A DNA stretch of 64,000 bases from the human T2T-CHM13v2.0 reference genome, Homo sapiens (GCF_009914755.1 NC_060936.1), one strand, 5' to 3'; shown: positions 1 through 38,964, counted from the stretch's first letter. Program-made: numbers and translations. Notes: generated by a model not told the origin, from the sequence alone.

Positions 1-2451
1 CACAGGCCAAATGGGAGAGTTGAACAGGGATGTGGTGGGAATCACCACCCCTGCGTCTTTCGAGTCCTTGATGGTAGCATTAATTTCCACAATCCCTCCA
101 GGGATGCGATTTTTTTTTATTTACTATTTTTCTAGCTAGAGGTAGCTCTAAATGGCTTCCATTTTGCCTTTCCCTCCGTAATAGCCCTCACCCTACCAGT
201 CAGGAAGCCAATGTGGGGGTTCTGCCAGCTGCTAAGTATGTCTATGCCAATTATATACTCTGGTCCTGGAAAAATGACCACAAGATGAGTCTGGGGACCC
301 ACTGGACTCACTGTAAGTCAGACCTGAGCTAAAACTCCATTAATTACCTGACCTCCATAAGCCCCTACTTTAACTGGAGGACCACAATGATGTTTTGGGT
401 TCCCTGGAATCAACCTCAGCTCAAAGCCAGTGTCCAGTAGTCCCCAAAATGTCTGATCATTTCCCTTTCCCCAGTACACAGTTACCTTGGTAAAAGGCCA
501 GAGGTCTCCATAGGGAAGGATGGGAAAAAGATTCACGGCATAGTGAATTGAGATCGCACCACTGCACTCCAGCCTGGACGGCAGAGCAAGGCTGCATATC
601 AAAAAAAGATTCACTACATAAATTGTCAGTAATGTAGTGGGGTCCTTCCTCAAGGGGACCTGGCCTTCCCTTTATTCAAGGGGTTCTGGGTTTGTAAACT
701 GGCTCAAGTCTGGAAATTGATTGAGGGGCCGTGATTCTGTTTTTACAATTCAAATTAGTCTTGTCCATTCAACCTAGAAGTTTTCTGCTTATGAAAATTA
801 GGTAGGAATGTAGTAGGCTTCCTATCAATTTTAATTCTAGGAACACTGTAATTAATTAGCCAGTGCCAGCACTCTACAGGAGTCAGTCTATTCTGATTGC
901 CGCTTTGCCTCTTCCGTCCATTATGGTAGCTACACCCACCTTGCCTTTGATGGTTGAGTGCTGCCACCTGGCCTCTGCCACCTTGGGATCCAATTATTCC
1001 CATTGTATTTAAATTTTGTAGTTGAGTGACTGCAGTTCCCACTGTTAGATCTGACATACAGAGAAGAGCAATTACAGGGCTCTTCAAAAATGCAGGTCCT
1101 GCCCTCACAAATCTATTTCACAAGGCATTGGTCAAGGGTGTATCTTCTGACCCTCTCTACTGGGATGAGTAGGTCTAAAGTGACTAATCCACTCCACCAT
1201 CCCAATCTCCCTAAGCCTTTGGATCCCTTCCTCTACATTAAACTGAGGGAGATGAGGCATTTCCAGCTCACTCACAGTGGGCTATCTTTTAATCCATATT
1301 TTAGCTAACCAAGAAATAAACTCTTGGACCCTTTTTTAACTCCCCAAGCTGAGACATTAAATGCAGAGTCCCTATTTAGTGGGCCCAAATCAATAAATTC
1401 AGCCTGATCCAACTCTATGTTCCTTCCACCATTATCCCACACCCTTAATATCAATTCCCATGCCTGTTCTCCAGATTTCTGTTTATATAAATTAGAAAAC
1501 TCAAGCAGTTATTTTCAAGTGTAGGACCCCTCCTCATGGGTCACACTCTCAACCTTACCTCTAGGTGCCTGCCGGGACTTTAGTCCAGTTACAGGTCTAG
1601 AGGCAAACAAGGTTGTTGGGGGTGGCTCCTGAGAAGAATCAACATTATCTTGCCTGCCAACTGCCTCAAGGGAGGCCATCACTATTGCCTCAGGCAGTGC
1701 AGGGTTTATCTCCCCAGACAAAGGTGGAAAGGCTGATGGCAGCATGGGTCAGGGTGGGGATGTTGCCACTACTGGGGATGGGGAAGCTGTTTTTTTCTAG
1801 CAAAAAGCATTGTCAGAATTTACAAACTCAGTGTCCCCAGCTTCATCAGCGTCCTCCCGGGCATCCTATTCCAAGTTGCAGGGTCTCATTCTTTTCCAAT
1901 CAATGCCCTCACTTTAACAGTAGGCACCTGGTGGGGCTGTGCATGCACCTTTCATTGCAGGTCAGCTACTCACATAATAAGAGCTTGTGTCTATTTTTCA
2001 ACAATTTCAGCTCTTTCTCTACAAGAGATAAGACTGTCACTCAGGGCAATCTTAGCAAATTTTGAGGCTCAGTGTCTGCTTCTGAAGCCAGGAGTTAGAA
2101 TCCCTGAGTTCATCATTTTCTCTCAACACTTTGTCTACTGAACTTAGGAGCACCCAACCAGCTTTGTTATGTTCCTTGGTTCTCCACATATGTCAAAGGT
2201 ATTATGTATAGAGTCACTAAACTTGCCTGTCACAAGCAGTGAATCAGGAGTGTCAAATGCATTTATGTTGCATAACTCTCCAAACGGTTCACACCAAGGA
2301 CTATCAGTGTTCTCCATACTATTAGAAGTAGAGTCCTTAGCATTTTTCGGTCTAATCATATGAAGCAGCCAACTCCAGAAGCCCCAAAACCAATGAAAGA
2401 ACTCCATCCTTAATACTCTGTTCCTCTAGAACCACTCCTTGTACCAAAATC
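1..2451 (-). mobile_element. HERV-L (ERVL) internal region: decayed gag and protease; continues left of window
   Basis: Minus-strand ORF fragments resemble HERV-L gag/pro, including the aspartic protease motif TFWGLLDTG (ORF 318-653). A tRNA-Leu-type PBS (TGGTACAAGGAGTGGT on -, 2431-2446) abuts the LTR. The reading frame is broken. Confidence 0.9.
543..607 (+). mobile_element. Severely 5'-truncated Alu nested in HERV-L
   Basis: GAGATCGCACCACTGCACTCCAGCCTGG plus short A tail, flanked by ~17-bp TSD aaaagattcacGGcata / aaaagattcacTAcata. Confidence 0.85.
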
Positions 2452-2490
2452 TGTATTAGTCAGAGTTCTCTAGAGGAACAGAACTAATGG

Positions 2491-2535
<45 letters not shown>

Positions 2536-2915
2536 AGAGTTTATTAAGTATTAACTCACATGATCACGAGGTCCCACAATAGGCTGTCTGCCAGCTGCGG
2601 AGCAAGGAGAGCCAGTCAGAGTTCCAAAGCTGAAGAACTTGGAGTCCAATGTTCGAGGGCAGGAAGCATCCAGCATGGGAGAAAGACGTAGGCTGGGAGG
2701 CTAAGCCAATCTCAGATCTTCACGTTTTTCTGCCTGCTTTAGATTTGCTGGCAGCTGATTAGATGGTGCCCACCCAGATTAAGGGTGGGTCTGCCTTCCC
2801 CCGCCCACTGACTGATATGTTAATCTCTTTTGGCAACACCTTCACAGATACACCCAGGATCAATACTTTGCATCCTTCAATCCAATCAAGTTGATACTCA
2901 GTATTAACCATCACA
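2452..2915 (-). mobile_element. MLT2A-type LTR (5' LTR of the HERV-L)
   Basis: TG...CA termini (minus strand starts TGTGATGGTTAATACTGAG); PBS adjacent; internal (GATA)n typical of MLT2A. Confidence 0.88.
2490..2534. repeat. (GATA)n microsatellite inside the LTR
   Basis: About 11 GATA units read directly. Confidence 0.95.
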
Positions 2916-3039
2916 AGATTCTTACATTACTACTAATAAACAAGAACTGAAAACAAAAACAAAAACAAAAACAAACCGAGACAGATCCCCCATTTGTCTC
3001 TCTTCACTCCCTCTTCTCTTCTTCCACATGTCTCTGCAG

Positions 3040-3121
3040 TCTTTTCTGCAGCAGCCATTTGTTCAAAGAGCCCACTTCCTTGAACAGCTGCTTGCCAGGC
3101 TGCATGGTCATATAATGTTAG
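3040..3121 (+). pseudogene. Pseudo-exon 1 (SFLQQPFVQRAHFLEQLLARLHGHIML)
   Basis: Long pyrimidine tract + ctgcag acceptor; TAG|gtgaag donor; phase 0 in, 1 out; no stop. Confidence 0.55.
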
Positions 3122-3231
3122 GTGAAGAGTGAAGAGCTCTGCATGAGGCCCCACTGTCTATCTAAGAGCAAGGGTTCTTGCCTCAAAAAAAAAAAAAAAA
3201 AAAAAAAGGCCTATCAAATGGTATAAACTAG

Positions 3232-3425
3232 GATTTAGCAAACTATGGCCCATAACCTGTTTCTGTTAATAAAGCTTTATTGGAACACACCAACGCCCAC
3301 TCATTTGTGCATTGCCTGTGGCTGTTTCAACATTGTAATGGCAGAATTGCAAGAGACTGCATGGCCCACAAAGCCTAAAATGTTTACTATCTGTCTCTTT
3401 ACAGAAAAGGTGTGCTGACCCCTGG
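3232..3425 (+). mobile_element. MER58A-like hAT DNA transposon remnant
   Basis: gcaaactatggccc ... aataaagctttattggaacac ... tgctgacccctg, typical MER58 motifs. Confidence 0.7.
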
Positions 3426-3542
3426 CCTATACAATTAAGAAATGCTTGCCTCTGTGGCTTCCAATCACAGCAAAATTTTTTGTCTTGCAGAATAGATATG
3501 AAACCTTTTTCAAAAATACTGATTCTTCTATTACAGTGGTTT

Positions 3543-3544
<2 letters not shown>

Positions 3545-3581
<37 letters not shown>

Positions 3582-3846
3582 TTGAGACAGAGTCTTGCTC
3601 TGTCACTCAGGCTGGAGTGCATTGGTACAATCTCAGCTCACTGAAATCTCTGCCTCCTGGGTTCAAGTGATTCTCTTGTCTCAGCCTCCCGAGTAGGTGG
3701 GATTACAGGTGTGCACCACCACACCCGGCTAATTTTTGTGTTTTTAGTAGAGACAGGATTTCGTCATTGTTGGCCAGGCTGGCCTCAAACTCCTGACCTC
3801 AAGTCGTCCACCCTCCTTGGCCTCCCAAAGTGCTGGGATTACAGGT
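3545..3846 (-). mobile_element. Alu (antisense) with TTTTG tail
   Basis: gagacagagtcttgctctgtc...ctcccaaagtgctgggattacagg. Confidence 0.95.
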
Positions 3847-4440
3847 ATTACAGTGTTTTAACCTGTAATATATGTAACCTGACAATGTGTAAGTGAGAAG
3901 TGCCCAATATACTCTTAGTTCTGAAATTGGCTAACTGGAAAACCCTTGCTCTCACGTTTTTCTTTGTGAACTCGTTCTTCCTGCCATTCCCTCTCTCATT
4001 CTGTAATATTTAAGTGAACTCATACTCACTTCAAACCTTCCTCTGTTATCACTAGAATATGGCCTCTGGAAAAAAAATCTTCACAATTCATTCTTACACA
4101 AGTGTGAGGGAATTTAGGCTTAAGGGATATACACTCTCATCTTTCCAAGTACAGCCAGTACATTTCTCCCTTTTGGGTTTCCCCGCATCTTATAAATGTC
4201 TCCATCATAATTTCTAAAACACTATATTGTGTTTCTTTTAAATTCATCTGCCCCCAAGAATCAAAACCTTCCTGAGAGCAGAGACTGCTTCTTATTTATC
4301 TTTGAACCTCTAGCATCCAGTACCCAGAAAGAGTCTACTTCCAAAAAGATGAATGGAAGAAGGAAGACAGGCAGGTTGGCAGGCTTCTTGGATTACCGTT
4401 CCACTTATCTATCCCCAATGCATTTGCATTTTAACAAAAG

Positions 4441-4498
4441 ACAGCTTGAAGCCAAGCAGTGAAACTGTGTTGGTGGAAATTTTAAACATCAGAAGCAA
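4441..4498 (+). pseudogene. Pseudo-exon 2 (D-SLKPSSETVLVEILNIRS)
   Basis: aaag acceptor (weak); CAA|gtgagg donor; phase 1 in, 2 out; no stop. Confidence 0.45.
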
Positions 4499-4589
4499 GT
4501 GAGGGAGATGCTTTTGTGGATAGGGAAACATTCCTAGCATCCCTTCAATTTTATATTCATAGGAAGCATCCATCTTACCTAATTTTCAG

Positions 4590-4672
4590 GTCAGCCCTGA
4601 AAGAGAGAAGAGAAACGTACATGCTACATTTCTATAAGACTATAGACTAACCTTCCAATGCTCAAATAGAAA
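4590..4672 (+). pseudogene. Pseudo-exon 3 (K-SALKERRETYMLHFYKTID*PSNAQIE)
   Basis: cctaattttcag acceptor; AAA|gtagga donor; phase 2 in, 1 out; 1 stop. Confidence 0.5.
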
Positions 4673-4991
4673 GTAGGAGAAAAATTAAATACATCCATAT
4701 TAGCCACTGGGGCAACACTAACATGAAAGCCAACTGATGAGATATTTGAAAGTTTGTCTTGAGGAAAAAACAAACAAAGAAAGTATTAAATGCCAGTAAA
4801 ACTTCCCCCAAAGTCAGAGTCATCTGGGGTTACCAATAGGGGGCAGCAGGACCTGGAGTTAAAATCTACTGGAGTCAAACTCCCTGAATTTAAATCCTAG
4901 CTCCACTTCTCTGTGGCAACAAGATCTTGCACAATTTCCTTAACCACTTGAAACTTCGATGTTTTTAATCCACAAAGTGGAGACACAAATA

Positions 4992-5332
4992 CAGTCAGGC
5001 ACTGTATTAATGATGCTTTTGTCAACAATGGGCCTCATATACAATAGTGGTCCCGTAAGATTATCATAACGTAGTTTTGCTCTACCTAGTTTATGTTTAG
5101 ATACACAAATACTTCCCATTGTGTTACTGCTGCCTACATTATTCAGTACCATAACACGGTGTACAGGTTTGTAGCCTGGGAACCCCCAGTGACACCTTAC
5201 AGCCTAGGTGTGTAGTAGGCTACACACCATTGAGGTTTGTGTAAGTTCACTCTGTGATGTTCACACAATGACAAAATTGCCTGAGGATGCATTTCTCAGA
5301 ACGTATCCCCATCATTAAGCAATGCACACCTG
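4992..5332 (+). mobile_element. Tigger3-like (Tc1/mariner) MITE
   Basis: CAGTCA...CTG termini with TA duplications; gtggtcccgtaagattat and gtatccccatcattaagc motifs. Confidence 0.75.
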
Positions 5333-5796
5333 TAGTGTTCCTCTCACAGGTCTTTCTTTTGAACTGGTTAATAATATAACTCAAATAGTAGCTATGGTTA
5401 TTCTTAGAGAAACCATTCATTCAGCACCTCCCACATGTAAGTCATTGACTTATCCTTTCTAAAATTTTCTAACCCCAGAGCTAAATATTCTAACATCAGG
5501 CACATCAAATGTAATGTATCTGACCTTTAGGTTCAATACAATATTATACCCCACAGGCTTTTATTTAAAACCCCTTATGTCCCTAGCACTGTCTGTTAAC
5601 TGTAGAACATACTAGAGGAGAAGACTCTGTCAGCTTCTTCGGGGCTTTAAGGCTTGTTGGACAGGATTCAGAGACTACTAGGCAGTGTACTGCTCATTAC
5701 TCAAAAGAGAAGACTGCAGCCTTGGGGAGCCTTCCTGATATGGGCATGGTGCAAGGGGAACCACGTGCCACTCTTCCAGCAGCATCAGCTCATCTG

Positions 5797-5879
5797 TTAG
5801 GCTGGTGCAAAAGTAATTACGGGTTTTGCCATTACTTTTAATTGCGTCAAAAACTGCAATTACATTTGCACCAACCTAA
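5797..5879. mobile_element. MADE1 mariner-derived MITE (full palindrome)
   Basis: ttaggctggtgcaaaagtaatt ... aattacatttgcaccaacctaa inverted termini, ~83 bp. Confidence 0.92.
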
Positions 5880-6118
5880 TAGAATGTAAGTTCCAGGAAA
5901 GTGGGATTTTCATCTGTTTTGTTTATTGCCTTATCCCCGGTACCTAGAACACTGCCTGGCACTTAGTAGGTGTCCAATAAATGTTTAAGGAAAGAAAAAG
6001 AAAAGAAAAAGGAAATTGATTGGTAGTTGGGTTTGGACATGCCTTTTAGGGAAAAATTGTATGGTTCCCTTTTGTTTCGTGTATTTTCTCCTCCAACTAT
6101 TTATCTGACTCCCTCCAG

Positions 6119-6265
6119 CTCCTCTTGACCTCCTCGATCTTCCTTATAGTTTTGTGCTTGTCTCTGAGTGTACTTTGGGTTTGTGGGGATTTGTACAAAT
6201 ATTGCTTAATCCCACAAGGGAGTATGTTGAGTGTTTTCCATAAAAAACAGTAACCTAGAAAGAAG
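6119..6265 (+). pseudogene. Pseudo-exon 4 (T-PLDLLDLPYSFVLVSECTLGLWGFVQILLNPTREYVECFP*KTVT*KE)
   Basis: Strong acceptor (ctgactccctccag after long pyrimidine tract); AAG|gtgaga donor; phase 1/1; 2 stops. Confidence 0.6.
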
Positions 6266-6426
6266 GTGAGATTTCTGGGCAGTTGCCAGCAGTTACCATG
6301 GTGCTCTGAACACATGTCCTCAAAAAATATTACTGATTTGACCCCACAGCCACAGTACATGGCATTTCTCACACATGATGAGACTCTTAAGAGGCATCTC
6401 TGTTCTGTGTTCAAACTGATGTATAG

Positions 6427-6684
6427 GGTACAAGTCTTCCATTTGTTCACTCTGCATTTATGAGAAATCGCCATCATAGTACCGGATTCCAGGCGGTAAA
6501 CTAGAAGCTCATCATCCTATCTGCTTCTCATTTGCGTTTCCAACAAATGGAATACTTTGATAGAAAGTTGAATTGGAAACCATAGTCGAACATACAAAAG
6601 CGCATTCCCAACAATTTTTTGAAACTCATAATGGAAAAATATATCCCAGATTTAACCAAGAGAACTGTAGTTCAATAATTGGCA
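6427..6684 (+). pseudogene. Pseudo-exon 5 (G-YKSSICSLCIYEK...EAHHPICFSFAFPTNGIL**KVELET...ENCSSIIG)
   Basis: ctgatgtatag acceptor; GCA|gtacag donor (weak); phase 1/1; 3 stops; STAT-DBD-like E..H.I.F...G...K.(E/D)LET pattern. Confidence 0.55.
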
Positions 6685-7526
6685 GTACAGTTGTCATTTC
6701 TCTTTTGATTATTTTAAAAAGAGATTTTTAGAAAAAGTTTGTTACTGATGCTTAATTTGTTCTTCCTGTGTAATCAACCCATAGTTATAAGCAAGCATTC
6801 CAAATTGCACTATATTTCTTGCATAGGGTAAAACATTATGATTCTTAAAATGGAATGCCAACTTTTTCTAGTCACACAATTGCTGAAAAGCTGCCTGCTG
6901 AAAAAGACTACATTTACCATGAACTCTTACTACCAGACAAGGACTATAGTTTCTGATGAATAGGGCCTGATAAGGCTGCCTGATTAAAAAACAAAAATCA
7001 CTGGGCAACATTCGTAGCAAAGGAAAAGATAAGACTATGCTTTATCCAAGTTGCAGTGCCTTCAATAAGATTTTTATTCCTTTTAGACACACATATCACT
7101 AAAGGGCAGTTGTACTTCCCATATTCTCTAGCCTTTGTTATTATTTTTTCTTAAAATTTGCACCTGGGAATTAAAGGCTAGGAGTCCTTGGCTTAAGTCT
7201 GCTGCACAGAAGGAATCTTTTAAAAATGTAAGTGATCTATTAGTCATATTTCTAAAAGGGGAGCTTTGAATTAATCATCTTCAAACGTTTCTGCCAAGAT
7301 AAAGGTCACCACACAATTACTGTCCTCACCCACTGGCCACAGAAGGAGAGAAGGAGAATGATGCTCCTGGATCTCACACTAGAGCATGCAGGATGCAGGC
7401 AGCCTCACGTGGCACACTTGCTTTCCACATAAGGAAACGGTGGCCCGGGGAAGCGACAGGCCAAGGTCACAGTTGGGAATCTGGGTCCTAAGTTGGGTGC
7501 CCTTGCCACTCAATAGGACTGCCCCA

Positions 7527-8291
7527 TATTCGTTTCCTGTGGCTGCTATGATAAATTACCATAAATCAGGTGACTTTAAAAAACAGAAATTTATCCTCTT
7601 TCCATTCTGGAAATCAGAAGTCTGAAATCACAGTTTGGGCAGAGCCACACTTCCCCTGAAGGCTCTAGGGGAGGACTTTCGCTTGCTTTTTCATCCAGGC
7701 GTTCATTGGCTTGTGGCTGCCTCCCTTTAATCTCTGCCTCTGTTCGTCTTCACATACCCTTCTCTCTTCGCTGTGTCTCTTCTCTTAGTGTCTTTTTTTT
7801 TTTCTTTTTTTTGAGATGGAGTCTCACCCTGTCACCCAGGCTGGAGTGTAGTGGCGTAATCTCAGCTCACTGCAACCTCTGCCTCTCAGATTCAAGCTAT
7901 TCTCATGCCCCAGTCTCCTGAGTAGCTGGGACTACAGGCGTGCGCCACCACATCGGGCTAATTTTTTGTATTTTTAGTAGAGACAGGGTCCCACCATCTT
8001 GGCCAGCTGGTCTCGAACTTCTGACTTCAGGTGATCCGCCCACCTTGGTCTCCCGAAGTACTGGGATTACAGGCGTGAGCTACTGAGCCTGGACTCTTAA
8101 GTGTCTTTTATAAGGACATTTGTCGTTGGATTTAGGGCCCACTCAGACAATCCCGAATAATCTCATCTCTAGATCATTAATTTAATCATATCTACTAAGA
8201 CCCTTTTTACAAATAAGGCCATATGCACATGTTCCAGGGGTTAGGATGTGGACATATCACTTTTGGGGGGGCCACCATTCAAACCATTATA
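7527..8291 (-). mobile_element. MaLR LTR (MLT1B/C-like) interrupted by an Alu
   Basis: tttcctgtggctgct...aaacagaaatttat...gggttaggatgtggacatat MLT1 motifs on both sides of the Alu. Confidence 0.75.
7792..8092 (-). mobile_element. Alu (antisense)
   Basis: Full Alu with poly-T and TSD ctctta(a)gtgtcttttt. Confidence 0.95.
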
Positions 8292-8853
8292 CCCCATTCT
8301 TTTTCCTAAAGTAGTAGCCATCATCACATCATTTTAAAAGTTTTGTAGTGCATTAAAATAGTTGGTAGTCTCTTTTTCTCTTCTTCCCATTCACAAGTCT
8401 TCTTGGAGTCAGACCTGCATATTTGAATTTCTAATTCTAGCTCTGTCATTCACTACAACATTGCGACCTTAGGTAAGTTCCTTATGCATCCCTCTAAGCC
8501 TCAGTTTCCTCTGGTCTAAAATAAGAACAGTAATATCCACTACATAGGGTGCTTGTGAAAATCAATATGATAATGCATGTAAAGCACGTAACAAAGTGTC
8601 TAAGAAGAATCAGTTCTCAGTAAACGCCAGCTGATTTTAAATTAGAATAATATTCACCAAGATCAGTCTATTGCTTACAAAATGTAGACATTTGAGGTCT
8701 ACTGGGGGACCCATTTCCAGCAGCCAGAGACATTTCTGGCACCAGCACGTGAGAGCTGCCTCATTGTTGAGTGCTGACACATGGGTGCACGGCCTGCTCA
8801 GCAGTGGGGTTGGGGGGGAATTCCCGGGATGCTCTGAATTGTTGCTTTCTCAG

Positions 8854-8992
8854 CCCACACCATGGACCTTCAGATCTTCAGCAGAGCATAGAATAAGGAG
8901 ACGTTCTGGTACCAGAAGGGAGACGAGACTATTCCAGCAGCCATGGGACTAGTCCCTTCGGATCTGACCAGCTTGGGGCAACGCAACTCAGG
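8854..8992 (+). pseudogene. Pseudo-exon 6 (T-HTMDLQIFSRA*NKETFWYQKGDETIPAAMGLVPSDLTSLGQRNS)
   Basis: ctgaattgttgctttctcag acceptor; AGG|gttagt donor; phase 1 in, 2 out; 1 stop. Confidence 0.6.
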
Positions 8993-9827
8993 GTTAGTGA
9001 AAGAGTGGCTATATTGGGGTTTCTACATGGTGGGTGGGGGTGGGGAAAGCCAGTGGAAGGGTGTCCTGCTCTAGAGAGCTGCAAAGTCTGGGTCAGACAC
9101 CCAGTTATACAACCTTCTGGGTTCCAAAGCTTGTCCTGAAGCAAAGAACCAGAATAGCCAAGCATAAAACCAAAAAAAAAAAAAAAAAAAAAAAAAAGCA
9201 TTTATCAAGGATATTTGTTTAGTTGTATTTTTCTAAACAAATAAAGGGTGGCATGGAGTTATACTGTACTTACACGGTGACAATGGGTTGCCAGCCACAC
9301 CCCAAATAGTTTGCATTTATTATTAGTTTATTCACCAGCTTAGTCCTCCTGTGAGGAAATCCAATCTCTAAAAATATTCTTCCCTGTCCTCTTCACACTG
9401 GGCACCCCTACCCCACACAGACACCACTTTGCTTAGGGGAGGGAGATAAGAATTCTGAATTCACTACAGTGATTGCTTCCAGTGGATGGTCAATCCAGAA
9501 TTGGAGACAATCCTGCATGAATGCCACATTTATTAAAAAAAAAAAAACCCTAATATTTAGAACAGCCAAAAGAAGATACCAGTTCGGATACACACTGCAC
9601 CCACCGTGAGACCTAAATTCAGTCATGCTGAACTCATTACAGCTATTTGAGTTAATTTCATTCATCCAACGATCCGAGCAACCCCAGCTGACACAGACCC
9701 GGGTCTTTTCTAGAGTGCCCAGAAATCCAGTCCACTGCCAGGCATGGAATTGACATAGAGGCACATTTTCCGCACCAATCCATGTCTCTTCATGTTACTG
9801 GTGCAGATGTTCTGATTGCTTTCCTAG

Positions 9828-10136
9828 GTCTCTGCATGGCTACAATGGTGGTTCTTGATATTTTTATTAACTCATGCTGTCTTTTGATGAACAAAATATA
9901 TTTCATGCCACAGAAATTTTGTTATGCCCTTCCAGAGGCATATTCACCTTTCCAGAATTAGCATTAGTGGGTTTTGAACACCAAGGCAAAAAGTCAAGGT
10001 CATGGATCAAGCCGTTCACAAGCCGGTTATCTTCTCCCTGCTCCCTATGTGCAAATTCAACTCCAAATTTGACCTTTGTGCTCCCAAATGGATGCATGAT
10101 GTCAGAAGGTATCCCAGATGAGCAAAATGGATGTGG
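9828..10136 (+). pseudogene. Pseudo-exon 7 (G-SLHGYNGGS*YFY*LMLSFDEQ...ILLCPSRGIFTFPEL...EQNGC)
   Basis: ctgattgctttcctag acceptor; TGG|gtaacg donor; 309 nt, phase 2/2; contains ORF-track ORF 9874-10140; 2 stops. Confidence 0.6.
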
Positions 10137-10230
10137 GTAACGTAACCAACCACTTTTAACTGGGGGAGGGTGAGCACTCAAACTGTATTCTGCTTTTGTA
10201 TATACATACAATTATTCATTTATGTTCCAG

Positions 10231-10278
10231 AACGGAAAAACAAATGCAATTGAGGACTGTCAGTATTTCGATCTATAG
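10231..10278 (+). pseudogene. Pseudo-exon 8 (G-TEKQMQLRTVSISIY)
   Basis: ttcatttatgttccag acceptor; TAG|gtcaac donor (weak); phase 2/2; no stop. Confidence 0.5.
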
Positions 10279-11588
10279 GTCAACATGTCTATTTATTCAA
10301 CAAGCTTATCTGAATACTTGTTCTATGTCAGATTCCATGCTAACAGATTAGATTCGGTGATATATAAGATCCAGTATGAATCTTCAACGTGTTTATTATA
10401 AAGAGACAAGGTAGGAGTAGGGAAGGGAAGGGAAGAGAGAGAATTGTCCCTCCCTGAGTGGGTCGGAAAAGATTTATGGAGGAGGAGTGTCTAAGCTAGA
10501 ATTTAAAGATGAATACAAGTTTTTCAGGCAGACAAAGTACAGCTAGGCAGGCAGATGGGAACTACCTGAGCCAAGGCATGGAGGCGTAAAGTGCACAGTG
10601 TGTTTAAAGAACAGTACACAGCTAGCTATTCTTGGAGTACACATTCTGCAGGAGTTTGTGTAGGGAAATGGCAATGATCAATCACTCTGAGTATATGTGG
10701 ATTGGGTTATTGTTCCATTTACTTAACAAATGTTTACTGAGCCCTTGCTAAACAGAGGAATTCAGACCAGGAGCTGGACCTAAGGGTGATAAGGAAAATA
10801 TGACATGAATCTACAAAACATAAGATACTTTTCATGAGAGAAGATGGTTTCATTCATTCATATTCATCAGCAACAATGGATTAAGTTCTAAATTAGCACC
10901 TACCAACACAAATGATTATAAGACATGTTTTTTGTACTTAAAGAGTGTCAGTCTAATGGAAAAAACACATAAATAAAACATGATATTATAATATATTCAA
11001 TAATCAGTCTAATAGCATTTATTGGCTGCTTACCAAGTTCTGGACACTGATCTAAGTGCTTTATATTGATTAATTTAGCCCATCCTCACACAATATTATT
11101 ATTGTCTGCATTTCCCAAATGGCAAAGTAAGGACTGGAGAGGTTACTCAAGTTGTTCAACCAAGGGTCACACTGCTAAGATTAAAATCCACGAAATTTGA
11201 CCCCACATTCTTAACCACCACTCCAGAGGACTATAGAAGCATGGAACAGAAACACAGAAGCCATCCAAGAAGGGGTTGGGGAAGATGAATCCTTCCACCC
11301 CAACAGTAGTTACACGCTCTCTGAGGTCTCCGGGGAATAGAAAACCAGTTTATAGAATCTTGGGAAACTACCAAACTTAATGATACTAGAGTGTATACAT
11401 CTAGAGTTCAAGCTCACAATAGTCCATTTTTTTCCCAAAAATTCCCCTACATTACATTTCTCATTCAAATTATTGTAACTTTTTCAATCCCCGCCCTCTT
11501 TAAATGCTAAAATCTCATTATATGCTTCTTAGATTTTTATCAAGAGACCTATATAGTTGATGGGGAAGCTTCTGACATTTCTCTTCAG

Positions 11589-11726
11589 GGTCTTCTTTTT
11601 CGGAGCACTCAGCATTTTATGTTATGTAATACCTTCTGAAGACCATTATAAAACTTTCTGGCTGGATTTGTACACTGCTAATCCATTATGTGTCAATCCC
11701 AGTGTCCTGTATGCAATATGATGAAG
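11589..11726 (+). pseudogene. Pseudo-exon 9 (R-VFFFGALSILCYVIPSEDHYKTFWLDLYTANPLCVNPSVLYAI**)
   Basis: ttctgacatttctcttcag branch point and acceptor; AAG|gtagaa donor; phase 2/2; W....T.NP..VN STAT-like motif. Confidence 0.6.
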
Positions 11727-13987
11727 GTAGAATTATGTTTCTCATTCAAATTATTTTAACTTTCTCAACTCCCACCTAATTCAGTTCCCTCCATCCTTAT
11801 AACTATCATTGACATGGAGTTGGCAAACAAAAAAGGAAAGTTGTAAGAACTCACAGCCCTAATGATCTTCTTATAAAATCAAATCATAAAGTAGAGAAAA
11901 AGTCAAACAGGACCGTAGAATGCTGAAAGATGGCCTCATCCTTGGAGGAGGAATCCAGGATGAGAGATCTGTGTCAGTAAGGATAGCATTTGCCTGGATG
12001 TCACAGAACCCAACTAGAATGACTTTAGCAAGGAAAGAGAGGGTTTTGGGTAACATAACAAGATCCCAGGCACCTGTTTTTCTATTCTGCTGTTGTCTTT
12101 GCAAGAGTTGTGATATATGTTCAGGTTTCAAGATCTATTCCGAACAGCAAGAAGGCAAAGGACAAGGAGTAAACAGAAGAAGCTAGCTAAGTCTGTCCCC
12201 TTTGAAAAACTTTTTCCAGGATTCACATGCTTGAGCCTCCATTTAAATCTCATCAGCCAGGTTTGGGTCACATGGCCTTCAGTAGCTGCAAGAGAGTCAG
12301 AGCAGGTCAGCCTATGACCTCAGCACATACCATCCCAGACAAAGCAGGGTTTTAATAGCAAGAAAAGGAAAGAGCATGCACATTGAGTTGGCACATTATC
12401 TATTATTACAATAACAGTGATGACTACATTCTCCTAAAGTTTCCTGATTAAAAAAAAAAATAGAAGAGCAGAGAAAAGGCAGGTGAAACAGATTACAAAA
12501 CCCCAGGGAATATAGACAATTGACTAAAGCTGAGCCCAGTGTTACTTAAGTACTTGCCCCTTTGTGATTATCTCCTTAACACAGATAATCCATGGGCCTG
12601 AATCTCATAGTATGACTAGGAGTTAGACAGACTTGGGGAAGGCACCTAGGGGATAAAACATTCCCAGCCAAAGCACCAAGCTGGGAAGCACCATTTTGTA
12701 TGGGGAATTACAATGCATTCCCTATTTCCAGAGATCAAATTGCAAAGTAAGGAATATCAGGCAGGTAAATGGAGCCAGATCACGGAAGGCTTGTGTTTGT
12801 GCTTTAAAAATGTGTTTATCTGGTATGAGAATCCTCTGAGGTGTCTTAAGCCAGGGAGGGAAGGTTCAGACTTAAATTTTAGATAACTCACCTTTAGTGA
12901 CCATTATAGGATGGAATCAAGGAGATAAAAAGGAGGGCGGAGAAACAAGGTAAGAGGCGACCATGTTAATACAATTGGAAGATGTTGAGGCCCTGATCTG
13001 GTGGAGACATGGAGGAGTGCACAAATATGAAGAATTATTTCCTTTGAGTATCATGGAAGACTTCTTGGAGGAAGCAGCCTTTTATAACTGAAAATGAACT
13101 TTATTTTGTGTCTACACTCTGTATCTGAACAGTCTGAGGCATCCTTGCTTCATATATTTTGTAAAAAATTATGGGATATAAGTTAACCACTAATTATAAA
13201 TTCCTAAACAACTTGTTCTACTATTCATAAGTAAAACGATTTGAAAAAAATTTTGGCAAAGGCTAAAAACGTGAAATAATACTCAAAACCTAAAAGTAGG
13301 AAAAGCCTATATCAAGTTACTTATAACCTCAAAAGTAATTGTTCTCTAGTTGTGGTGAGTATCCAGGGAGCAGGGTGAAAATACAGATACAGAAGCCCAC
13401 TTCAGATCTACTAAATCAGAATCTCCACGGTGGGACTTGGGGATGAGTATTTATAATTAATTCCACAGGATATGCTAATATACACTGGTTTTCATCAGCA
13501 GCATGATGAACCTAATAGGGCATGATACACTCCACCATTACACATATTGACAAGAAAGAGGGCATGGGATCCGAGAATGTGCAATTAAGAGGCAAGAGAC
13601 GAAAGTGCAGGCAGAAAGGCTGTCACTCATATAGAATGTCAGAACCATGGAACTTGGCTGCAGAGCCTGGTAGGACTTGAGCAGCAGCTAGGTAGGAAAA
13701 TGGAAAGAGCAGAGGAAGGACTGGGATAGGGAGACTAACAGGGATCCAAGCACAGCCACTTTGGGGGTGGGAGAGTGCTAGATGGCAATAGACAAAATCA
13801 CCCTATCCAAAAGGGTGTGACAAACCTGGTCTCTCAACTTTCCAGGCAATTCATAGCTATGCTTTTGTTGGTAAATCAAGACAAATTTCTTTCTATGTAA
13901 AGTATATATGCTAACTATTATTTGTTGGTGAAAATATAGAGATTACATTGGTCAGTAAACAGAAGAAATTGCATCTCTGTCCCTTAG

Positions 13988-14029
13988 AATAGACCAAAGG
14001 AATATCTGAACAATTCTGATGAGAAAACT
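13988..14029 (+). pseudogene. Pseudo-exon 10 (R-IDQRNI*TILMRK)
   Basis: tctctgtcccttag acceptor; ACT|gtgagt donor; 42 nt, symmetric. Confidence 0.55.
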
Positions 14030-14111
14030 GTGAGTCCCTACAGTTCCATGTTATTAGGCAGGTCCCCAGCACGACAGACCCCTTACCAGCCTGACCAATT
14101 TTGCTCCTTAG

Positions 14112-14234
14112 AGATCACTGAGCAAATACCTGGTGGCTTTGGCACTGTTCCCTACTGTGTCTGTGACATCACCCATTTATTTTGTGAACATCCTACAGAC
14201 ACATTTCATGAAATGGGCCAAGGGAAAGAAGAAG
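14112..14234 (+). pseudogene. Pseudo-exon 11 (phase 2: L-DH*ANTWWLWHCSLLCL*...GPRERR)
   Basis: ctgaccaattttgctccttag acceptor; AAG|gtagga donor; 123 nt symmetric; 4 stops in phase 2, open in phase 0, so the frame is uncertain. Confidence 0.5.
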
Positions 14235-14460
14235 GTAGGAGAAAGGAGAAGGGCAGAGGAAAGGAGAAGGTAGATAGTCCTGTGTGATGAACTTTTCTAA
14301 CACTATTTCTCATTTTTCTCTGGGAAAAATAAAAGTAGCTGACTTTAAACAACCAGCTTCAGATCATCGGGGAACCATGATCACCCCCATGGATCCTGCT
14401 GCCTTCTGAGGCAGTATGCATGATTTGCAAAGACTTCTGTGTTTGAGGTCTTTTTCCTAG

Positions 14461-14550
14461 TATCCTGAGTCAGAACAAGCAGGGTGCATTTGCGTTGACA
14501 TGTCTACCTGAGCTCTTCTGCTTTGGATTAGTCAAAACCATAAACAGCAA
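14461..14550 (+). pseudogene. Pseudo-exon 12 (S-ILSQNKQGAFALTCLPELFCFGLVKTINS), SH2-start-like
   Basis: tctttttcctag acceptor; CAA|gtaagg donor; 90 nt symmetric; stop-free in phase 2 and in frame with the PLEKHG7 exon at 16534. Confidence 0.6.
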
Positions 14551-15064
14551 GTAAGGCTGGAAGAGGTGGTGAGTAGATGTATGGGGAGTTTTTGTCATCA
14601 CAGCCCTCCCCTGCCTCCCAGTCCTTCCTAACAGAGTGGCAGCAGGCAGCTCGCAGCCATTCTGCATGACCAGAGGTGGTCTGAACCATGAACCTGCCTA
14701 ATTCAGCTCTAAGATCTCTCCTTGCATCTTTTTAAAAACTTATTTTAATTCAGAGAGTACATGTGCATATTTGTTCCACGGGTATATTGCATCATGGAGG
14801 AGATCAGACTTCTAGTGTACCCATAACCCAAATATTGAATGTTGTACCCAATAGTTAATTTTGCAACACTTACTTCCCTCCCACCTCACCCCTCCCCACT
14901 TTTGGAGTCTATTGTTTCCATCTTTATGTCTATGGGTACCCATTGTATAGTGCCCACTTATAAGCGAGAGAATGTGATATTTGATTTTCTGCATCTGGAT
15001 TAGTTTACTTAGGATAATGGCCTCCAGCTCCATCCATGTTGCTGAAAAGAAAATAATTTCATGC

Positions 15065-16168
<1,104 letters not shown>

Positions 16169-16533
16169 TTTCTTTATCTAATCAACCATTGATAGACACT
16201 TAGGTCAGTTTCATGACTTTGCTATGGTGAATAGTGCTGCAATAAACATGTGTACAGGTGTCTTTTTTATATTATGATTTCTTTTCCTTTGGGTAGATAG
16301 TCAGTAGTGGGATTGCTGGGTTGAATGGTAGTTCTATTTTTAGTTCTTTGAAATATCTCCATACTGTTTTCCATTGAGGTTGAACTAATTCACATTCCCA
16401 CCAATGGACTATAAGCATCCCTTTCTCCACAACCACGCCAACATCTGTTGTTTTTTTACTTTTTAAAAATAGCCATTCTGAGTGGTCTAAGATGATATTT
16501 CGGTGTGGTTTTCCTTTTATCTCTTGAGCACAG

Positions 16534-16661
16534 GTTCTACGAGCACAGGCGGAGTTCTGTGGTGCTGAACTTACCTGGACTTGAGGTGTTCCCCGGGGAC
16601 CTTCTGGTGTCAGATGGAGCTGCTGATTACCTATGCCATCCACTTCTGCTGCTGAATTCAG
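16534..16661 (+). CDS. PLEKHG7: PLEKHG7 coding exon (FYEHRRSSVVLNLPGLEV...LLLNS); first functional exon seen in window
   Basis: cag acceptor; CAG|gttctg donor (weak); 128 nt; phase 2 in, 1 out, fits next exon. Confidence 0.75.
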
Positions 16662-33161: not shown

Positions 33162-34289
33162 GTAAAGTATCATTTTCTTTTCTTTTGTATTTTTGCTGAT
33201 GCTTTTTGGGTGTCACATGTACTGGGAATGATTATATCTAAATTAAATGGGAAAGAAGAAAACAAAATGATCAATAATATGTTTTAACTACAAATCTGCT
33301 TTCCTCATAAATACATTGTCCACTGCACACTTAGGAATATTAAATGGTGCACATCTGGAAAGATTATATTATCTAATATCCCTCCTGAAATGTTGGCTGG
33401 GGCTTAAAAATGTTTTCTTGGTTCATTATGCTATTTGCGGTAGAAATTGGTACATTGTAAGGAGAAAACTATATAGTAAGAACCTGAGCTTTGTGACTTA
33501 GAAGTTTGGCTCTTGCAGGAGTTAGTTCCAGCATAGAAACTTGGGACATCATTTACACTGTATTCTACATGAATGCTGCCCCCTTGATTAGAGTATAAAG
33601 CACAATGTCAATGTTGCCTCTGGAGCTGTGCCAATATGGCAGCTCTGGGTCCCACAGCATTAAAAGAAGAATTTTCTGCCAGGGTCCTTCAGCATTTTCT
33701 AGTAGCCAAGCCTAAAACCTATCTCCCCTGACTTCTCTAATTCTGTTGGTCCCTGCTTTGATATTTCTTTAGTCTGAACTGAACCTTTTCAGTCCTGTGC
33801 CAGAGCCCTTTTGGATCATCCAGAGAAAATGGTCCAAGCCTTTCCAGAAAACCAGCTCTTCCCTGCAGCTGCGAGAAGCCCCTGCCAGAGCATGACCTCA
33901 GAGGCTTGGGAGGAAAGGCTCCCATGGTTCCCAATGACTCAGCTGTGAATCAGTGGGCTTCCGCCCCAGCCTTGATATGCCAGGAAGCCTGGGTGTGCCA
34001 AGGACGAGAAAAGGGGAATAATCTTAGGGAAGAGACTTGGCCATATTTTTGTAGCTTCAGCCCTTTAGTGTTTTTTTTGCTACTCAAACTGAAAGGTGAT
34101 AGCTCATTAGATTTCCAAATGCATGAATAATCATATTGCAAATGTTTCCCCTAGAAGCTGATGGATTACACTCTTAGCTAGGCCCCCAAACTGGGAGAAT
34201 CCAGGTTCCTTTCTCTCCCTTCCAAGCTGGGAAAGAGATTAATTTAACAAGGTCCAACTATTGTTTTCAAATAACTTTGGAAAATCCTA

Positions 34290-35757
34290 TATACATATAT
34301 TCAAAGCCAGATGATTTTTGACAAAGGCACCAAAAACATACATTGGAGAAACAACACTCTCTTGAGTAAATAGCATTAGGAAAACTGAATATCTCGATGC
34401 AGAAGAATGAAAGTAGACCCCTATCTCTCACCATATGTAAAAATCAAATAAAAATGAATTAAAGATTTAAGTGTAAGGCCTGAAACTATAAAACTGGTAG
34501 AAGAAAACATAAAAGAAGCACTTGAGGACATTGGTCTACACAAATATTTTAGGGCTAAGACTTCAAAAGCATAGGCAACAAAAACAAAAATAGACAAATA
34601 GTGCTATATTAAACTAAACGGCTCCTGCACAGCAGAAGAAACAACAGAGTAAAGAGGCAATCTGCAGAATGGGAGAAAATATTTGCAAACTATTCATTTG
34701 ACAGGGGACTAATACCTAGAATATACAAGGAACTTGAAGATCAAAAAAATAAATCCCATTACAAAGTGAGAAAAGAATCTGAGTTGACATTTCCCAAAAT
34801 GAAACATACAAATGGCCAACAGGTATATGAAAAAAAAAAAAATCTCAACATCACTAATCGTCAAGGAAATGCAAATCAAAACCACAATGAGATATCATCT
34901 TACCCCAGTTAAAATGACTACTAAGATATCATCTTACCCCAGTTAAAATGGCTGCTATTTAAAAAGATAAAATAAAATAAGAGATGCTGGCAAGGATATA
35001 GAGAAAAGGGAACTTTTGTACACTGTTGGCAGGTATGTAAATTAGTGCAGTTGTTATAGTAAACAAAATGGAGGTTTCTCAGAAAACTAAAAATAAAACT
35101 ACCATTATCCAGCAATCCCACCACTAGGTGTTTAGCCAAAAGAAATAAATCAGTGTATCAAAGGAATACCTGCTCCTCCCATGCTTATTGCAGCACTATT
35201 TACAGTAGCCAAAATATAGAATCAATCTAGTGTTCATCAACAGATGATTAGGTAAAGAAAATGTAACATATCTGTGCAGTAGACTATTATTCAGCCAGAA
35301 AAAAGAATGAAATCTTGTCACTTACAGATAAAACTAGAGGTCATTAAGTGAAATAAGCCAAGCACAGAAAGACAGATATTGCATGTTCTCACTTGTATGT
35401 GGGAGCTAAAAAAGTTAGTCTCATGGAGATAGAGAGTAGGATGATGGTTACCAGAGGCTGGGAAGAGGGGAGAAGGGGATGAAGAGAGGTCGGTTGATGG
35501 GTGCAAACATACAGTTATAGAAGGAGTAAGTTCTAGTGCATGATAACCCACTAGGGTGACTATAGTTAACAATAATTTATTGTGTGTTTCAAAATAACTA
35601 GAAGATTTGAAATGTTCTCAACATAAAGAAATGATGTTAATAATTATGGTTATGGCTATCCTAAATACCCTGATTTCATCATTACACATTGTACACATGT
35701 ATCAAAATATCATGTGTGCCCCATAAATATGTACAATTGTATATGAATAAAAATGTG
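34290..35757 (+). mobile_element. L1 ORF2 end/3' region (L1M-type, sense)
   Basis: gatttttgacaaaggcacca, ggaaatgcaaatcaaaaccacaatgagatatcatctt, aatgaaatcttgtca, catgttctcactt L1 motifs. Confidence 0.92.
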
Positions 35758-35811
35758 TGTGACATCCAGGGATATTTTGGGAAAGGTAGTAGAGGATAAG
35801 TGCTGTTATAA

Positions 35812-36122
<311 letters not shown>

Positions 36123-36556
36123 TGATGCTTTTATAACGCATAATACTTCACCAGACACTTTCTCAAACATCTCTTAATTCGGAACACAAACCTGTAAAGT
36201 TGATTACATTGTTCCTTTGTGTCCCTGAGGCTCAGAGAGGTTAGATGACATTTGCAAGGCCACATAGCCAATAGGTGGCAAAGAAAGAACCATAGCAAGA
36301 TTTTCAGGCAAAAAAATCCAGTGCTCTTCATATCAGAACTATTTCCAATTCCTTGGGGCTATGACCCATCACCATGGAACTATTAGCCTCATGAAACAAA
36401 GGTGAGAGGTCAGGGAGAGACTCGCAGATACCCAAGGTGACTAGTGTTTGAGCCCTTGCTATGGCCTAGACACTGTGCTACATGCTGGTCATCCATCCTC
36501 TTCTTGTCTACACACTAACTCTGCAGAATTTGATATTGTTCCCGTTTTTCAGGAGT

Positions 36557-37110
<554 letters not shown>

Positions 37111-37424
37111 TACTATTTTAGAAACAAAACGATGCAGAGGAAGAAACTGGGAACTTCGTACCAAGTCTCTTCGTGTGGCACAACTAACAATGGCTAAGAA
37201 CTCTAGCTGCCATGGACTGAGTGTTTGAGATGTGCCAGGCTCTGTTCTAAGCACTTTGTGAGAATTATCTCATTAAAACCTCTCACCAACCTAATGAGGT
37301 AGTTACTCTTGTTATCAACATTTTACTGATAATTTTTAGAAAGGGTAAGTAAATTTCCTGAGGTTCCAAGAATTCTGGTTGCCCCATCCTAATGCTGCAT
37401 CCCACTAAGACAAATTTATTAGGA

Positions 37425-38831: not shown

Positions 38832-38964
38832 GAAGAGAAATCGGAGGTCCAGAGAGAGAAGGTGGTCCTTGGAGCCTGGCTTCTGGAGCTCCATTCACCA
38901 TGCACTGTGAGCTCACTCTCATGGCCAGCCACCTGTACACAGGGGAGAGGAGAAGATTGAATTG

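What the first reader, a model, noticed from the sequence alone, without database searches (positions are those of the whole stretch)
3040..14550. Hidden 12-exon decayed gene module inside the PLEKHG7 intron, in frame with the RhoGEF
Seen: 12 segments on + bounded by AG and GT, most with a good pyrimidine tract: 3040-3121, 4441-4498, 4590-4672, 6119-6265, 6427-6684, 8854-8992, 9828-10136, 10231-10278, 11589-11726, 13988-14029, 14112-14234, 14461-14550. Their phases (0-1-2-1-1-1-2-2-2-2-2-2-2) join into one frame of 1517 nt (~505 codons) without invoking a frameshift, giving junction codons D,K,T,G,T,G,G,R,R,L,S. The chain ends in phase 2, so AA|G joins the PLEKHG7 exon at 16534 (..TINSK-FYEHRRSS..). 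It carries 16 stops, so it is non-coding as a whole here. Inference: these are lost exons of an ancestral long PLEKHG7 isoform, or a unitary pseudogene. The ORF track misses them. Caveats: some donors are weak (gtacag, gtcaac), sites were picked by eye with phase in mind, and 16 stops with no net frameshift is unusual for neutral decay.
Basis: partly seen in the sequence, partly recalled or inferred. Interest (0 to 1): 0.95.

Follow-up and report, generated by a model that had tools for sequence, protein, structure and literature searches.

The report
Chance splice-site chain; one real exon
The supposed 12-exon hidden gene in this human PLEKHG7 intron is a chance chain of splice-like sites, except for one segment that is an ordinary, evolutionarily conserved alternative 5' exon of PLEKHG7.

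Summary
The 12 segments exist exactly as described: AG/GT bounds, 1517 nt, phases, junction codons and 16 stops. As a module they are no better than chance. The intron gives about 25 stops per 505 codons, and 194 of 7155 random chains reach 16 or fewer. A deliberate search with stricter splice thresholds finds a 12-segment, 526-codon, zero-stop, phase-2 chain in the same DNA, and chains with 0-6 stops in the reverse strand, another intron and shuffles.

No chain piece has a Pfam hit or a paralogue. In PLEKHG7 proteins from frog to primate, the peptide of exon 16534 follows directly on a 23-nt micro-exon that lies upstream of the window. None of 119 located proteins leaves room for 505 extra codons.

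Segment 6 (8854-8992) is the exception. It is a conserved alternative 5' exon that gives short DH-PH isoforms without DUF4675. Human has TAG where 18 of 19 models have Gln, and a second ATG (8943) keeps a 531-aa ORF open. Low interest.

The parts
8854..8992 (+).
   Evidence: 28 of 120 PLEKHG7 protein models align here (tblastn E 1.8e-24 for marmoset P0041, 4.7e-19 for P0093), plus P0126. The N-termini are aligned. The acceptor context is TTGTTGCTTTCTCAG| and the donor is CTCAGG|GTTAGT.
8862..8864 (+). ATG1, the start of the 42-44-residue leader (MDLQIF...) used in 19 orthologue models. In human it opens only a 9-codon ORF.
   Evidence: Context ACCATGG. Alignment.
8889..8891 (+). TAG in human where 18 of 19 orthologue models have Gln and 1 has His
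8943..8945 (+). ATG2, the start of the 17-residue leader (MGLVPS...) used in 10 orthologue models. It is intact in human.
   Evidence: Context GCCATGG. The human ORF from here through the annotated exons is 531 aa, ends at the annotated stop, and is 96.4% identical over 531 aa to macaque model P0003.
8993..16533 (+). Intron removed when the alternative exon joins the common exon. It contains claimed segments 7-12.
   Evidence: All 29 models read ...NSG followed directly by the exon-16534 peptide. The junction is GG|G = Gly.
16534..16661 (+). Annotated PLEKHG7 exon (exon 4 of the selected transcript). It takes 2 nt from the preceding exon.
3040..3121 (+). Claimed segment 1: no support
   Evidence: 0 of 120 proteins. 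No Pfam hit.
4441..4498 (+). Claimed segment 2: no support
   Evidence: 1 of 120 proteins, at noise level (E 0.83, 29% identity).
4590..4672 (+). Claimed segment 3: no support
   Evidence: 0 of 120.
6119..6265 (+). Claimed segment 4: no support
   Evidence: 0 of 120. No Pfam hit. Only a self-match in the own genome.
6427..6684 (+). Claimed segment 5: no support. It has the weakest sites, with a pyrimidine tract of 0.47 and a donor matching 3 of 9.
9828..10136 (+). Claimed segment 7: unique intronic DNA holding a chance 88-89-aa open frame
   Evidence: 0 of 120. No Pfam hit. Only self-matches in the own genome. The only relatives in 1.84 billion representatives are unspliced ORF calls on orthologous DNA, which change frame relative to human, and low-complexity proteins.
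10231..10278 (+). Claimed segment 8: no support
   Evidence: 0 of 120.
11589..11726 (+). Claimed segment 9: no support
   Evidence: 0 of 120. Only a self-match.
13988..14029 (+). Claimed segment 10: no support
   Evidence: 0 of 120.
14112..14234 (+). Claimed segment 11: no support. It has 4 stops in 40 codons, and its 3' end runs into an 18-bp tandem repeat.
14461..14550 (+). Claimed segment 12: no support
   Evidence: 0 of 120.

Best explanation
There is no 12-exon module. Eleven of the twelve segments are ordinary, mostly single-copy intronic DNA that happens to lie between an AG with a fair pyrimidine tract and a GT. Such pseudo-exons are abundant, and a reader choosing among thousands of them with the phase in mind can always build a chain that ends in the required phase.

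The real exon before 16534 in the full-length gene is a 23-nt micro-exon at window -4878 to -4856. It follows a large DUF4675-coding exon that ends at -5390.

Segment 6 (8854-8992) is a genuine alternative 5' exon of PLEKHG7, conserved in placentals and at least one marsupial. Its donor at 8992 splices directly to 16534 (GG|G = Gly). It carries its own start codons, so transcripts using it encode N-terminally short proteins with the DH and PH domains but without DUF4675.

In most mammal models translation starts at ATG1 (8862). In this human genome codon 10 is TAG, so ATG1 opens only a 9-codon upstream ORF, and the in-frame ATG2 (8943, good Kozak context) would give a 531-aa protein like the macaque model. 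If the 139-nt exon is instead included behind the canonical upstream exons, it shifts the frame and gives a stop after 13 codons.

Shown: the coordinates, the homology, the junction, the ORF states and the chance controls. Inferred: that the exon is transcribed and ATG2 is used in human, and that the TAG is older than the human species.
For: Chance controls:
This was verified by translation.
- The best chains elsewhere are: reverse strand 0 stops in 421 codons and 3 in 592; intron 33162-41671, 2 in 478 (+) and 2 in 550 (-); six dinucleotide shuffles, 0-6 stops in 366-614 codons.
- Random chains are described.

No coding signal:
- 8 in-frame stop-free pieces and 41 six-frame ORFs of 60 aa or more gave no Pfam match above a curated cut-off.
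- 4 pieces searched as protein in the own genome gave only self-matches, plus one hit at E 0.35.
- DNA of 8300-14550 is unique apart from short weak matches outside the segments.

Gene architecture:
- tblastn of 14 PLEKHG7 proteins, from baboon to Xenopus and Ascaphus, puts the residues before the exon-16534 peptide upstream of the window.
- The micro-exon was located with AG and GT bounds.
- The exon-16534 peptide was located in 119 of 120 proteins, and its offset is 700 or more in 0 of them.

Segment 6. Domain content is: DUF4675 lies at 55-249 in the 754-aa lemur and 752-aa opossum proteins and is absent from the 531- and 558-aa isoforms.
Against: - All the orthologue isoforms are database protein models, mostly automated predictions. 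I saw no transcript, CAGE or junction-read data for any species, and none for human.
- The gene table supplied with the finding lists no human RefSeq exon at 8854-8992.
- Only the best 120 of 179 hits were listed and examined, and none is a fish.
- Protein comparison cannot exclude that some of the other 11 segments are occasionally spliced as non-coding or NMD exons.
- My splice measures are crude (pyrimidine fraction and consensus matches), not MaxEntScan or SpliceAI.
- The marmoset model's 5' junction does not fit human 8854 exactly. The frame implies a boundary 2 nt away or a sequence difference.
- No CpG island lies upstream of the exon, so any promoter there is unproven.
- P0123, an unnamed 232-aa ORF call, aligns to 9622-10122 at 44% identity in one frame. 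That stretch may therefore be conserved non-coding DNA, which I could not test.
Confidence: 0.9

Rival explanations
1. One reading: the 12 segments are decayed exons of an ancestral long PLEKHG7 isoform, inserted between the N-terminal exons and the exon at 16534.
For: The arithmetic holds. The chosen frame has 16 stops against about 25 expected. One segment is a real exon in that frame.
Against: - No PLEKHG7 protein examined leaves room for it. The peptide's offset is 700 or more in 0 of 119 located proteins.
- The junction from micro-exon to exon 16534 is contiguous in monotreme, marsupial and placental models, and the bird and frog models also show no insertion there.
- Ten segments get 0 of 120 hits.
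- Better chains arise in shuffles.
- The real exon splices directly to 16534, bypassing segments 7-12.
Confidence: 0.01
2. The segments are a unitary pseudogene of some other gene nested in the intron.
For: The 88-aa open frame at 9871-10134 has a 92%-identical and a 46%-identical relative among 1.84 billion representatives.
Against: - Those relatives are unspliced ORF calls over orthologous intronic DNA. P0121 changes frame relative to human after 10086, and human has 3 stops within the P0123 alignment.
- No Pfam family above a curated cut-off for any piece or any six-frame ORF.
- No second locus in the own genome.
Confidence: 0.01
3. Some of the other 11 segments are real but rare non-coding, cryptic or NMD-targeted exons, for example 5'UTR exons feeding the alternative exon or the canonical transcript.
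For: Several have acceptable sites, for example 6119-6265 with a donor matching 8 of 9 and 11589-11726 with a pyrimidine tract of 0.82. Marmoset and shrew models show that this intron does hold extra cassette exons, but upstream of the window.
Against: The region contains 88 acceptors and 106 donors of equal quality, so site quality alone predicts nothing. No listed protein model uses them. The supplied RefSeq table lists no such exon.
Confidence: 0.1
4. Segment 6 is not a real exon but a recurring artefact of automated gene prediction.
For: All the evidence comes from database protein models. Human RefSeq, as tabulated for this window, does not include it.
Against: - The same peptide with the same junction recurs in 29 models from primates, tree shrew, rodents, bats, a mole, a whale, bison, a tenrec and a marsupial.
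- The frame is open from ATG1 in 19 of those models.
- The only indel is an in-frame 2-residue one, in 6 bat models.
- Both ATGs sit in good Kozak contexts.
Confidence: 0.05

Closest known systems
Intronic pseudo-exons (decoy splice-site pairs). General knowledge, recalled and not looked up here.
   Same: Eleven of the segments are stretches of exon-like length, bounded by an AG with a pyrimidine tract and a GT, inside a long intron. They have no coding signal and no homologue.
   Different: Nothing distinguishes them. Their site quality is matched by 88 acceptors and 106 donors in the same 11.6 kb.
Short PLEKHG7 isoforms in database models of other mammals, for example macaque isoform X2 (531 aa, P0003), capuchin X5 (558 aa, P0008) and marmoset X5 (647 aa, P0041)
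   Same: The human sequence at 8862-8992 encodes the same leader and uses the same junction to the exon at 16534. The human ATG2 ORF is 531 aa and 96.4% identical to P0003.
   Different: Human has TAG at codon 10 of the ATG1 frame, where 18 of 19 models have Gln. The RefSeq table supplied for this window lists no human transcript with this exon.
Alternative-promoter or alternative-5'-exon isoforms that drop an N-terminal regulatory region of Dbl-family RhoGEFs. The general pattern is recalled, not tested here.
   Same: The short isoforms keep RhoGEF (DH) and PH and lack the N-terminal DUF4675.
   Different: No function of DUF4675 or of the short isoform is known to me, and no activity was tested. 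Whether there is a promoter upstream of 8854 is unknown. There is no CpG island.
Frame-shifting (poison) cassette exons
   Same: The exon is 139 nt, not a multiple of 3. Read in the canonical frame it gives a stop after 13 codons. The marmoset model uses it internally.
   Different: It also carries its own well-placed start codons in frame with the downstream CDS. That is the use seen in 28 of the 29 models.

Membership tests
Coding exons of an ancestral long PLEKHG7 isoform (the 12-segment module) | Orthologous PLEKHG7 proteins contain residues that align to the segments | tested here: not met
   tblastn of 120 proteins against window 1-16500 gave 0 of 120 for ten segments and 1 noise hit (E 0.83) for segment 2. 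Only segment 6 was hit. blastp of the chain, with X at stops, against the same 120 gave significant matches only at chain residues 210-256, which is segment 6.
Coding exons of an ancestral long PLEKHG7 isoform (the 12-segment module) | Room in the protein: about 500 residues between the N-terminal exons and the exon-16534 peptide in some lineage | tested here: not met
   The peptide's offset is 700 or more in 0 of 119 located proteins, with a maximum of 592. The residues just before it map to the micro-exon at -4878 to -4856, or upstream of it.
Coding exons of an ancestral long PLEKHG7 isoform (the 12-segment module) | Splice-site quality and phase concordance better than intronic or shuffled controls | tested here: not met
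Controls give chains with 0-6 stops under stricter site thresholds.
Unitary pseudogene | Recognisable homology to a protein family or to an intact orthologue, with disablements relative to it | tested here: not met
   Pfam on 8 pieces and 41 ORFs. The 88-aa piece against 1.84 billion representatives. Own-genome searches. The seven shorter pieces were not searched against the large protein libraries.
Alternative 5' coding exon of PLEKHG7 (segment 6 only) | Its peptide is present at the N-terminus of orthologous protein models and joined to the common exon | tested here: met
   28 of 120 models plus P0126. All join ...NSG to the exon-16534 peptide.
Alternative 5' coding exon of PLEKHG7 (segment 6 only) | A donor in the right phase and a start codon in frame with the downstream CDS in this genome | tested here: met
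   The donor at 8992|GT leaves GG, and with the G of 16534 this makes Gly. ATG2 at 8943 gives an open 531-aa ORF ending at the annotated stop. The ATG1 frame is closed by TAG at 8889-8891.
Alternative 5' coding exon of PLEKHG7 (segment 6 only) | Transcription and splicing of the exon in human tissue | not testable with these tools
   No expression, CAGE or junction data are available here. The supplied RefSeq table has no exon at this place.
Frame-shifting (poison) cassette exon (segment 6 only) | Inclusion behind the canonical upstream exons introduces a premature stop | tested here: met
   139 nt. The canonical frame stops after 13 codons. Actual inclusion was seen only as one marmoset model.

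The most novel reading that the evidence does not exclude
A conserved alternative 5' exon of PLEKHG7 (T2T chr12:92,698,854-92,698,992), absent from the human RefSeq table supplied, is still used in human. A Gln-to-TAG change at codon 10, possibly shared with Old World monkeys because the macaque model also starts at ATG2, has turned the ancestral start (ATG1) into a 9-codon upstream ORF. The DH-PH-only short isoform would then have to start at ATG2 by leaky scanning or reinitiation. That would be a lineage-specific change in how a RhoGEF isoform is translated.
Probability: 0.4. Interest if true: 0.2.

Novelty: not a real feature. Interest (0 to 1): 0.1.

Why it matters
It matters mainly as a caution. 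Chains of AG/GT-bounded segments with concordant phases can be assembled from any long intron, even fully open ones. Phase arithmetic with tolerated stops is therefore no evidence of a lost gene.

The one real element is an ordinary alternative 5' exon already present in other mammals' PLEKHG7 models. For human annotation it may be a small gap, and the human TAG is a minor point about isoform evolution in a poorly studied RhoGEF.

Tried and rejected
- Pfam on the 8 in-frame pieces and on all 41 six-frame ORFs of 60 aa or more. Only sub-threshold chance hits appeared (best E 0.0049-0.033, all below curated cut-offs), and there were no transposon protein domains.
- Rfam. It gave only Alu-type SRP matches, a mir-548-like palindrome and low-complexity miRNA-like hits in the VNTR. 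None is in a claimed segment and all are below gathering scores.
- Own-genome DNA search of the whole region. It was swamped by Alus, with only 39 of 20,903 candidates scored, so I repeated it on sub-regions.
- The 88-aa ORF at 9871-10134 looked briefly interesting because it had 5 hits in the representative library. I rejected it. Two hits are unspliced ORF calls on orthologous DNA that are not co-linear in frame with human, and three are repeat-rich or low-complexity proteins.
- Literature. 61 papers hold 'PLEKHG7' and none has it in the title (listing only). A second search combining it with isoform and promoter terms listed 10 papers, none of which holds PLEKHG7. I read passages of PMC5499878 only. 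They say PLEKHG7 belongs to the conserved vertebrate Dbl-like set and was lost in several rodents such as mice. I found nothing on PLEKHG7 isoforms, but these searches do not show that nothing is in print, and I opened no supplements.
- Structure prediction, complex prediction and the protein atlas were not used, because no chain piece had any sign of being a protein.
Full report
**What was claimed and what is in the sequence**

The window is human chr12 (T2T-CHM13), and the region is the long intron before the PLEKHG7 exon at 16534.
- Each of the 12 segments is preceded by AG and followed by GT.
- The lengths sum to 1517 nt, which leaves 2 nt.
- The frame-0 translation shows the listed junction codons and 16 stops. 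The other two frames have 27 and 25.
- The annotated exon at 16534 does take 2 nt from the preceding exon. The window's coding parts sum to 1546 nt and only the +1 frame is open.

**Is the chain more than chance? No.**

The three + frames of the region carry 0.050-0.052 stops per codon, so about 25-26 are expected in 505 codons. Sixteen is a mild depletion, not a coding frame.

The region holds 844 AG and 582 GT sites. 88 acceptors have a pyrimidine fraction of at least 0.70, and 106 donors match at least 6 of 9 consensus positions. The 12 claimed sites average 0.71 and 6.2, against 0.79 and 6.7 for 13 real PLEKHG7 exons in the window.

Random 12-segment chains of 1400-1650 nt have 24.6 +/- 4.7 stops per 505 codons. 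194 of 7155 have 16 or fewer, and 51 of 7155 also end in phase 2.

- In the same DNA it finds a 12-segment chain of 526 codons with no stop at all. It ends in phase 2 and reads open into exon 16534. I verified this by direct translation.
- The reverse strand gives 0 stops in 421 codons and 3 in 592.
- Another PLEKHG7 intron (33162-41671) gives 2 in 478 on the + strand and 2 in 550 on the - strand.
- Six dinucleotide shuffles give 0-6 stops in 366-614 codons.
- One 5.3-kb intron was too short to give any 12-segment chain.

**Homology of the chain**
- The eight stop-free in-frame pieces of 20 aa or more have no Pfam match above a curated cut-off. The best is E 0.033 at 14.7 bits, against a cut-off of 21.
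- The same holds for all 41 six-frame ORFs of 60 aa or more in 3000-14600.
- In the window's own genome, segment 7 as DNA, and four pieces as protein, match only themselves, apart from one hit at E 0.35.
- The 6.25 kb that holds segments 6-12 is unique apart from a few short weak matches that lie outside the segments.
- The repeats found are Alus at about 3552-3848 and 7790-8092 and a repeat of about 340 bp at about 4983-5339. None overlaps a claimed segment.

The longest open piece (88 aa, 9871-10134) had five hits among 1.84 billion representatives.
- Two are unspliced ORF calls over the orthologous intronic DNA of other mammals. P0121 switches frame relative to human after 10086, and human has three stops inside the P0123 alignment.
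- Three are repeat-rich or low-complexity proteins.

None of this is evidence of coding.

**The decisive test: PLEKHG7 in other vertebrates**

The peptide of exon 16534 retrieves 179 proteins, of which the best 120 were listed. They include PLEKHG7 from primates, other placentals, marsupials, echidna, birds and frogs. Full-length forms are mostly about 750-775 aa.

I mapped 14 of them onto the window plus the 12 kb upstream fetched from the same genome. The residues before the exon-16534 peptide map to one large exon at about -6106 to -5390. Pfam calls this part DUF4675.

That large exon ends in phase 0 at -5390. A 23-nt micro-exon follows at -4878 to -4856, with the bounds TTTCAG| and |GTGTGT. 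Its last two bases (AG), with the G at 16534, form the Arg that precedes the exon-16534 peptide in all 13 orthologues inspected.

The peptide was located in 119 of 120 proteins, and its offset is never 700 or more. The two largest offsets are a mole model (592) and a shrew model (408). The mole's extra residues map upstream of the window, and the shrew has an extra 35-residue exon at -4660 to -4556, also outside the window.

No tetrapod PLEKHG7 examined has room for a 505-codon insertion at this junction. tblastn of all 120 proteins against window 1-16500 gives 0 of 120 for ten segments and one noise hit (E 0.83) for segment 2.

**The exception: segment 6**

28 of the 120 proteins, plus P0126 from a second search, carry a peptide encoded by 8862-8992. 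A 29th overlap is noise (E 0.68).

Start codons in these 29 models:
- 19 start at or before ATG1 (8862, context ACCATGG), with a leader of 42-44 residues. They come from New World monkeys, fruit bats and microbats, squirrels, marmot and bison.
- 10 start at ATG2 (8943, context GCCATGG), with a 17-residue leader. They come from macaque, owl monkey, tree shrew, grey whale, ground squirrel, blind mole rat, star-nosed mole, tenrec, one unnamed protein, and the marsupial Dromiciops.

The only length difference is an in-frame 2-residue gap in 6 bat models.

In this human genome codon 10 of the ATG1 frame is TAG (8889-8891), where 18 of 19 models have Gln and one has His. From ATG2 the human frame is open through all annotated exons to the annotated stop, giving 531 aa, 96.4% identical over its full length to the macaque 531-aa model.

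The short isoforms keep RhoGEF and PH and lack DUF4675.

One marmoset model (P0041) uses the exon internally, behind exons that map to -5475 to -4142. Its reading frame does not fit a boundary at exactly human 8854, so the acceptor is plausible but not confirmed to the base. One bat model extends the first exon upstream to about 8781 without splicing.

Included behind the canonical exons, the 139-nt exon shifts the frame and gives a stop after 13 codons.

**How it most likely works**

Segment 6 is an alternative 5' exon, either a first exon from an internal start site or a cassette. It brings its own start codon and yields a DH-PH-only PLEKHG7.

In human, ATG1 now opens a 9-codon upstream ORF, so the protein would have to start at ATG2.

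Shown: the homology, the junction and the ORF states. Inferred: transcription in human, use of ATG2, and the age of the TAG. The macaque model starting at ATG2 hints that the TAG is older than humans, but ATG2-only models also exist in owl monkey, where ATG1 models are intact, so this is weak.

There is no CpG island upstream. GC is 0.50-0.54 around the exon against 0.42 in the flanks, and CpG observed/expected is 0.26-0.40.

**Limits**
- All the comparative evidence is protein models.
- No vertebrate genome alignments, conservation tracks, splice predictors or expression data were available.
- Only 120 of 179 hits were seen, and no fish.
- Non-coding use of other segments cannot be excluded (rival 3).

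**Literature**

I saw passages only of PMC5499878. They say PLEKHG7 is part of the conserved vertebrate Dbl-like repertoire and was lost in several rodents such as mice. The other papers were seen only as search listings.

**Verdict**

The 12-exon module is an artefact of selection among abundant pseudo-exons. One of its segments is a real but ordinary alternative exon, already present in other species' gene models. Interest is low.

Noticed in passing
window -4878..-4856 (L001/L002 region, outside the window): The real exon 3 of PLEKHG7 is a 23-nt micro-exon. It encodes 7 residues plus the AG that completes the Arg codon with base 16534. It is conserved in mammal models, from echidna to primates.
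   Followed up: yes
window -4660..-4556 and -4248..-4142 (outside the window): Two further cassette-like exons appear in other species' models: a 35-residue exon in a shrew model (66% identity to human DNA, E 2e-8) and an exon in marmoset isoform X5. The second has AG and GT bounds in human.
   Followed up: partly
window 9622-10122: An unnamed 232-aa ORF call (P0123) aligns here at 44% identity over 173 residues in one frame, with blocks of much higher identity. Human has 3 stops in that frame. It may be a conserved non-coding element about 0.6-1.1 kb downstream of the alternative exon, or it may be neutral similarity to a close species.
   Followed up: partly
window 5795-5881: A palindromic mir-548-family match on both strands (69 and 62 bits, gathering score 90). 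It looks like a MITE-derived hairpin; that repeat identity is recalled, not tested.
   Followed up: no
window 15438-16149: A 37-bp minisatellite of 19.2 copies with 95% matches, preceded by (GT)17 at 15397-15430 and an Alu at about 15074-15358. It lies just upstream of the exon at 16534.
   Followed up: no
window 4983-5339: An interspersed repeat of about 340 bp with many genomic copies at 74-82% identity. 40 of 6070 candidates were scored. The family was not identified.
   Followed up: no
window 9172-9197 and 2491-2534: An A26 run about 180 nt downstream of the alternative exon's donor, and a perfect (GATA)11 microsatellite.
   Followed up: no
window 3040-14550, + strand: A fully open 526-codon 'gene' can be assembled from 12 AG/GT-bounded pieces of this intron, partly through Alu sequence. 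It makes a handy negative control for exon-chain claims.
   Followed up: yes
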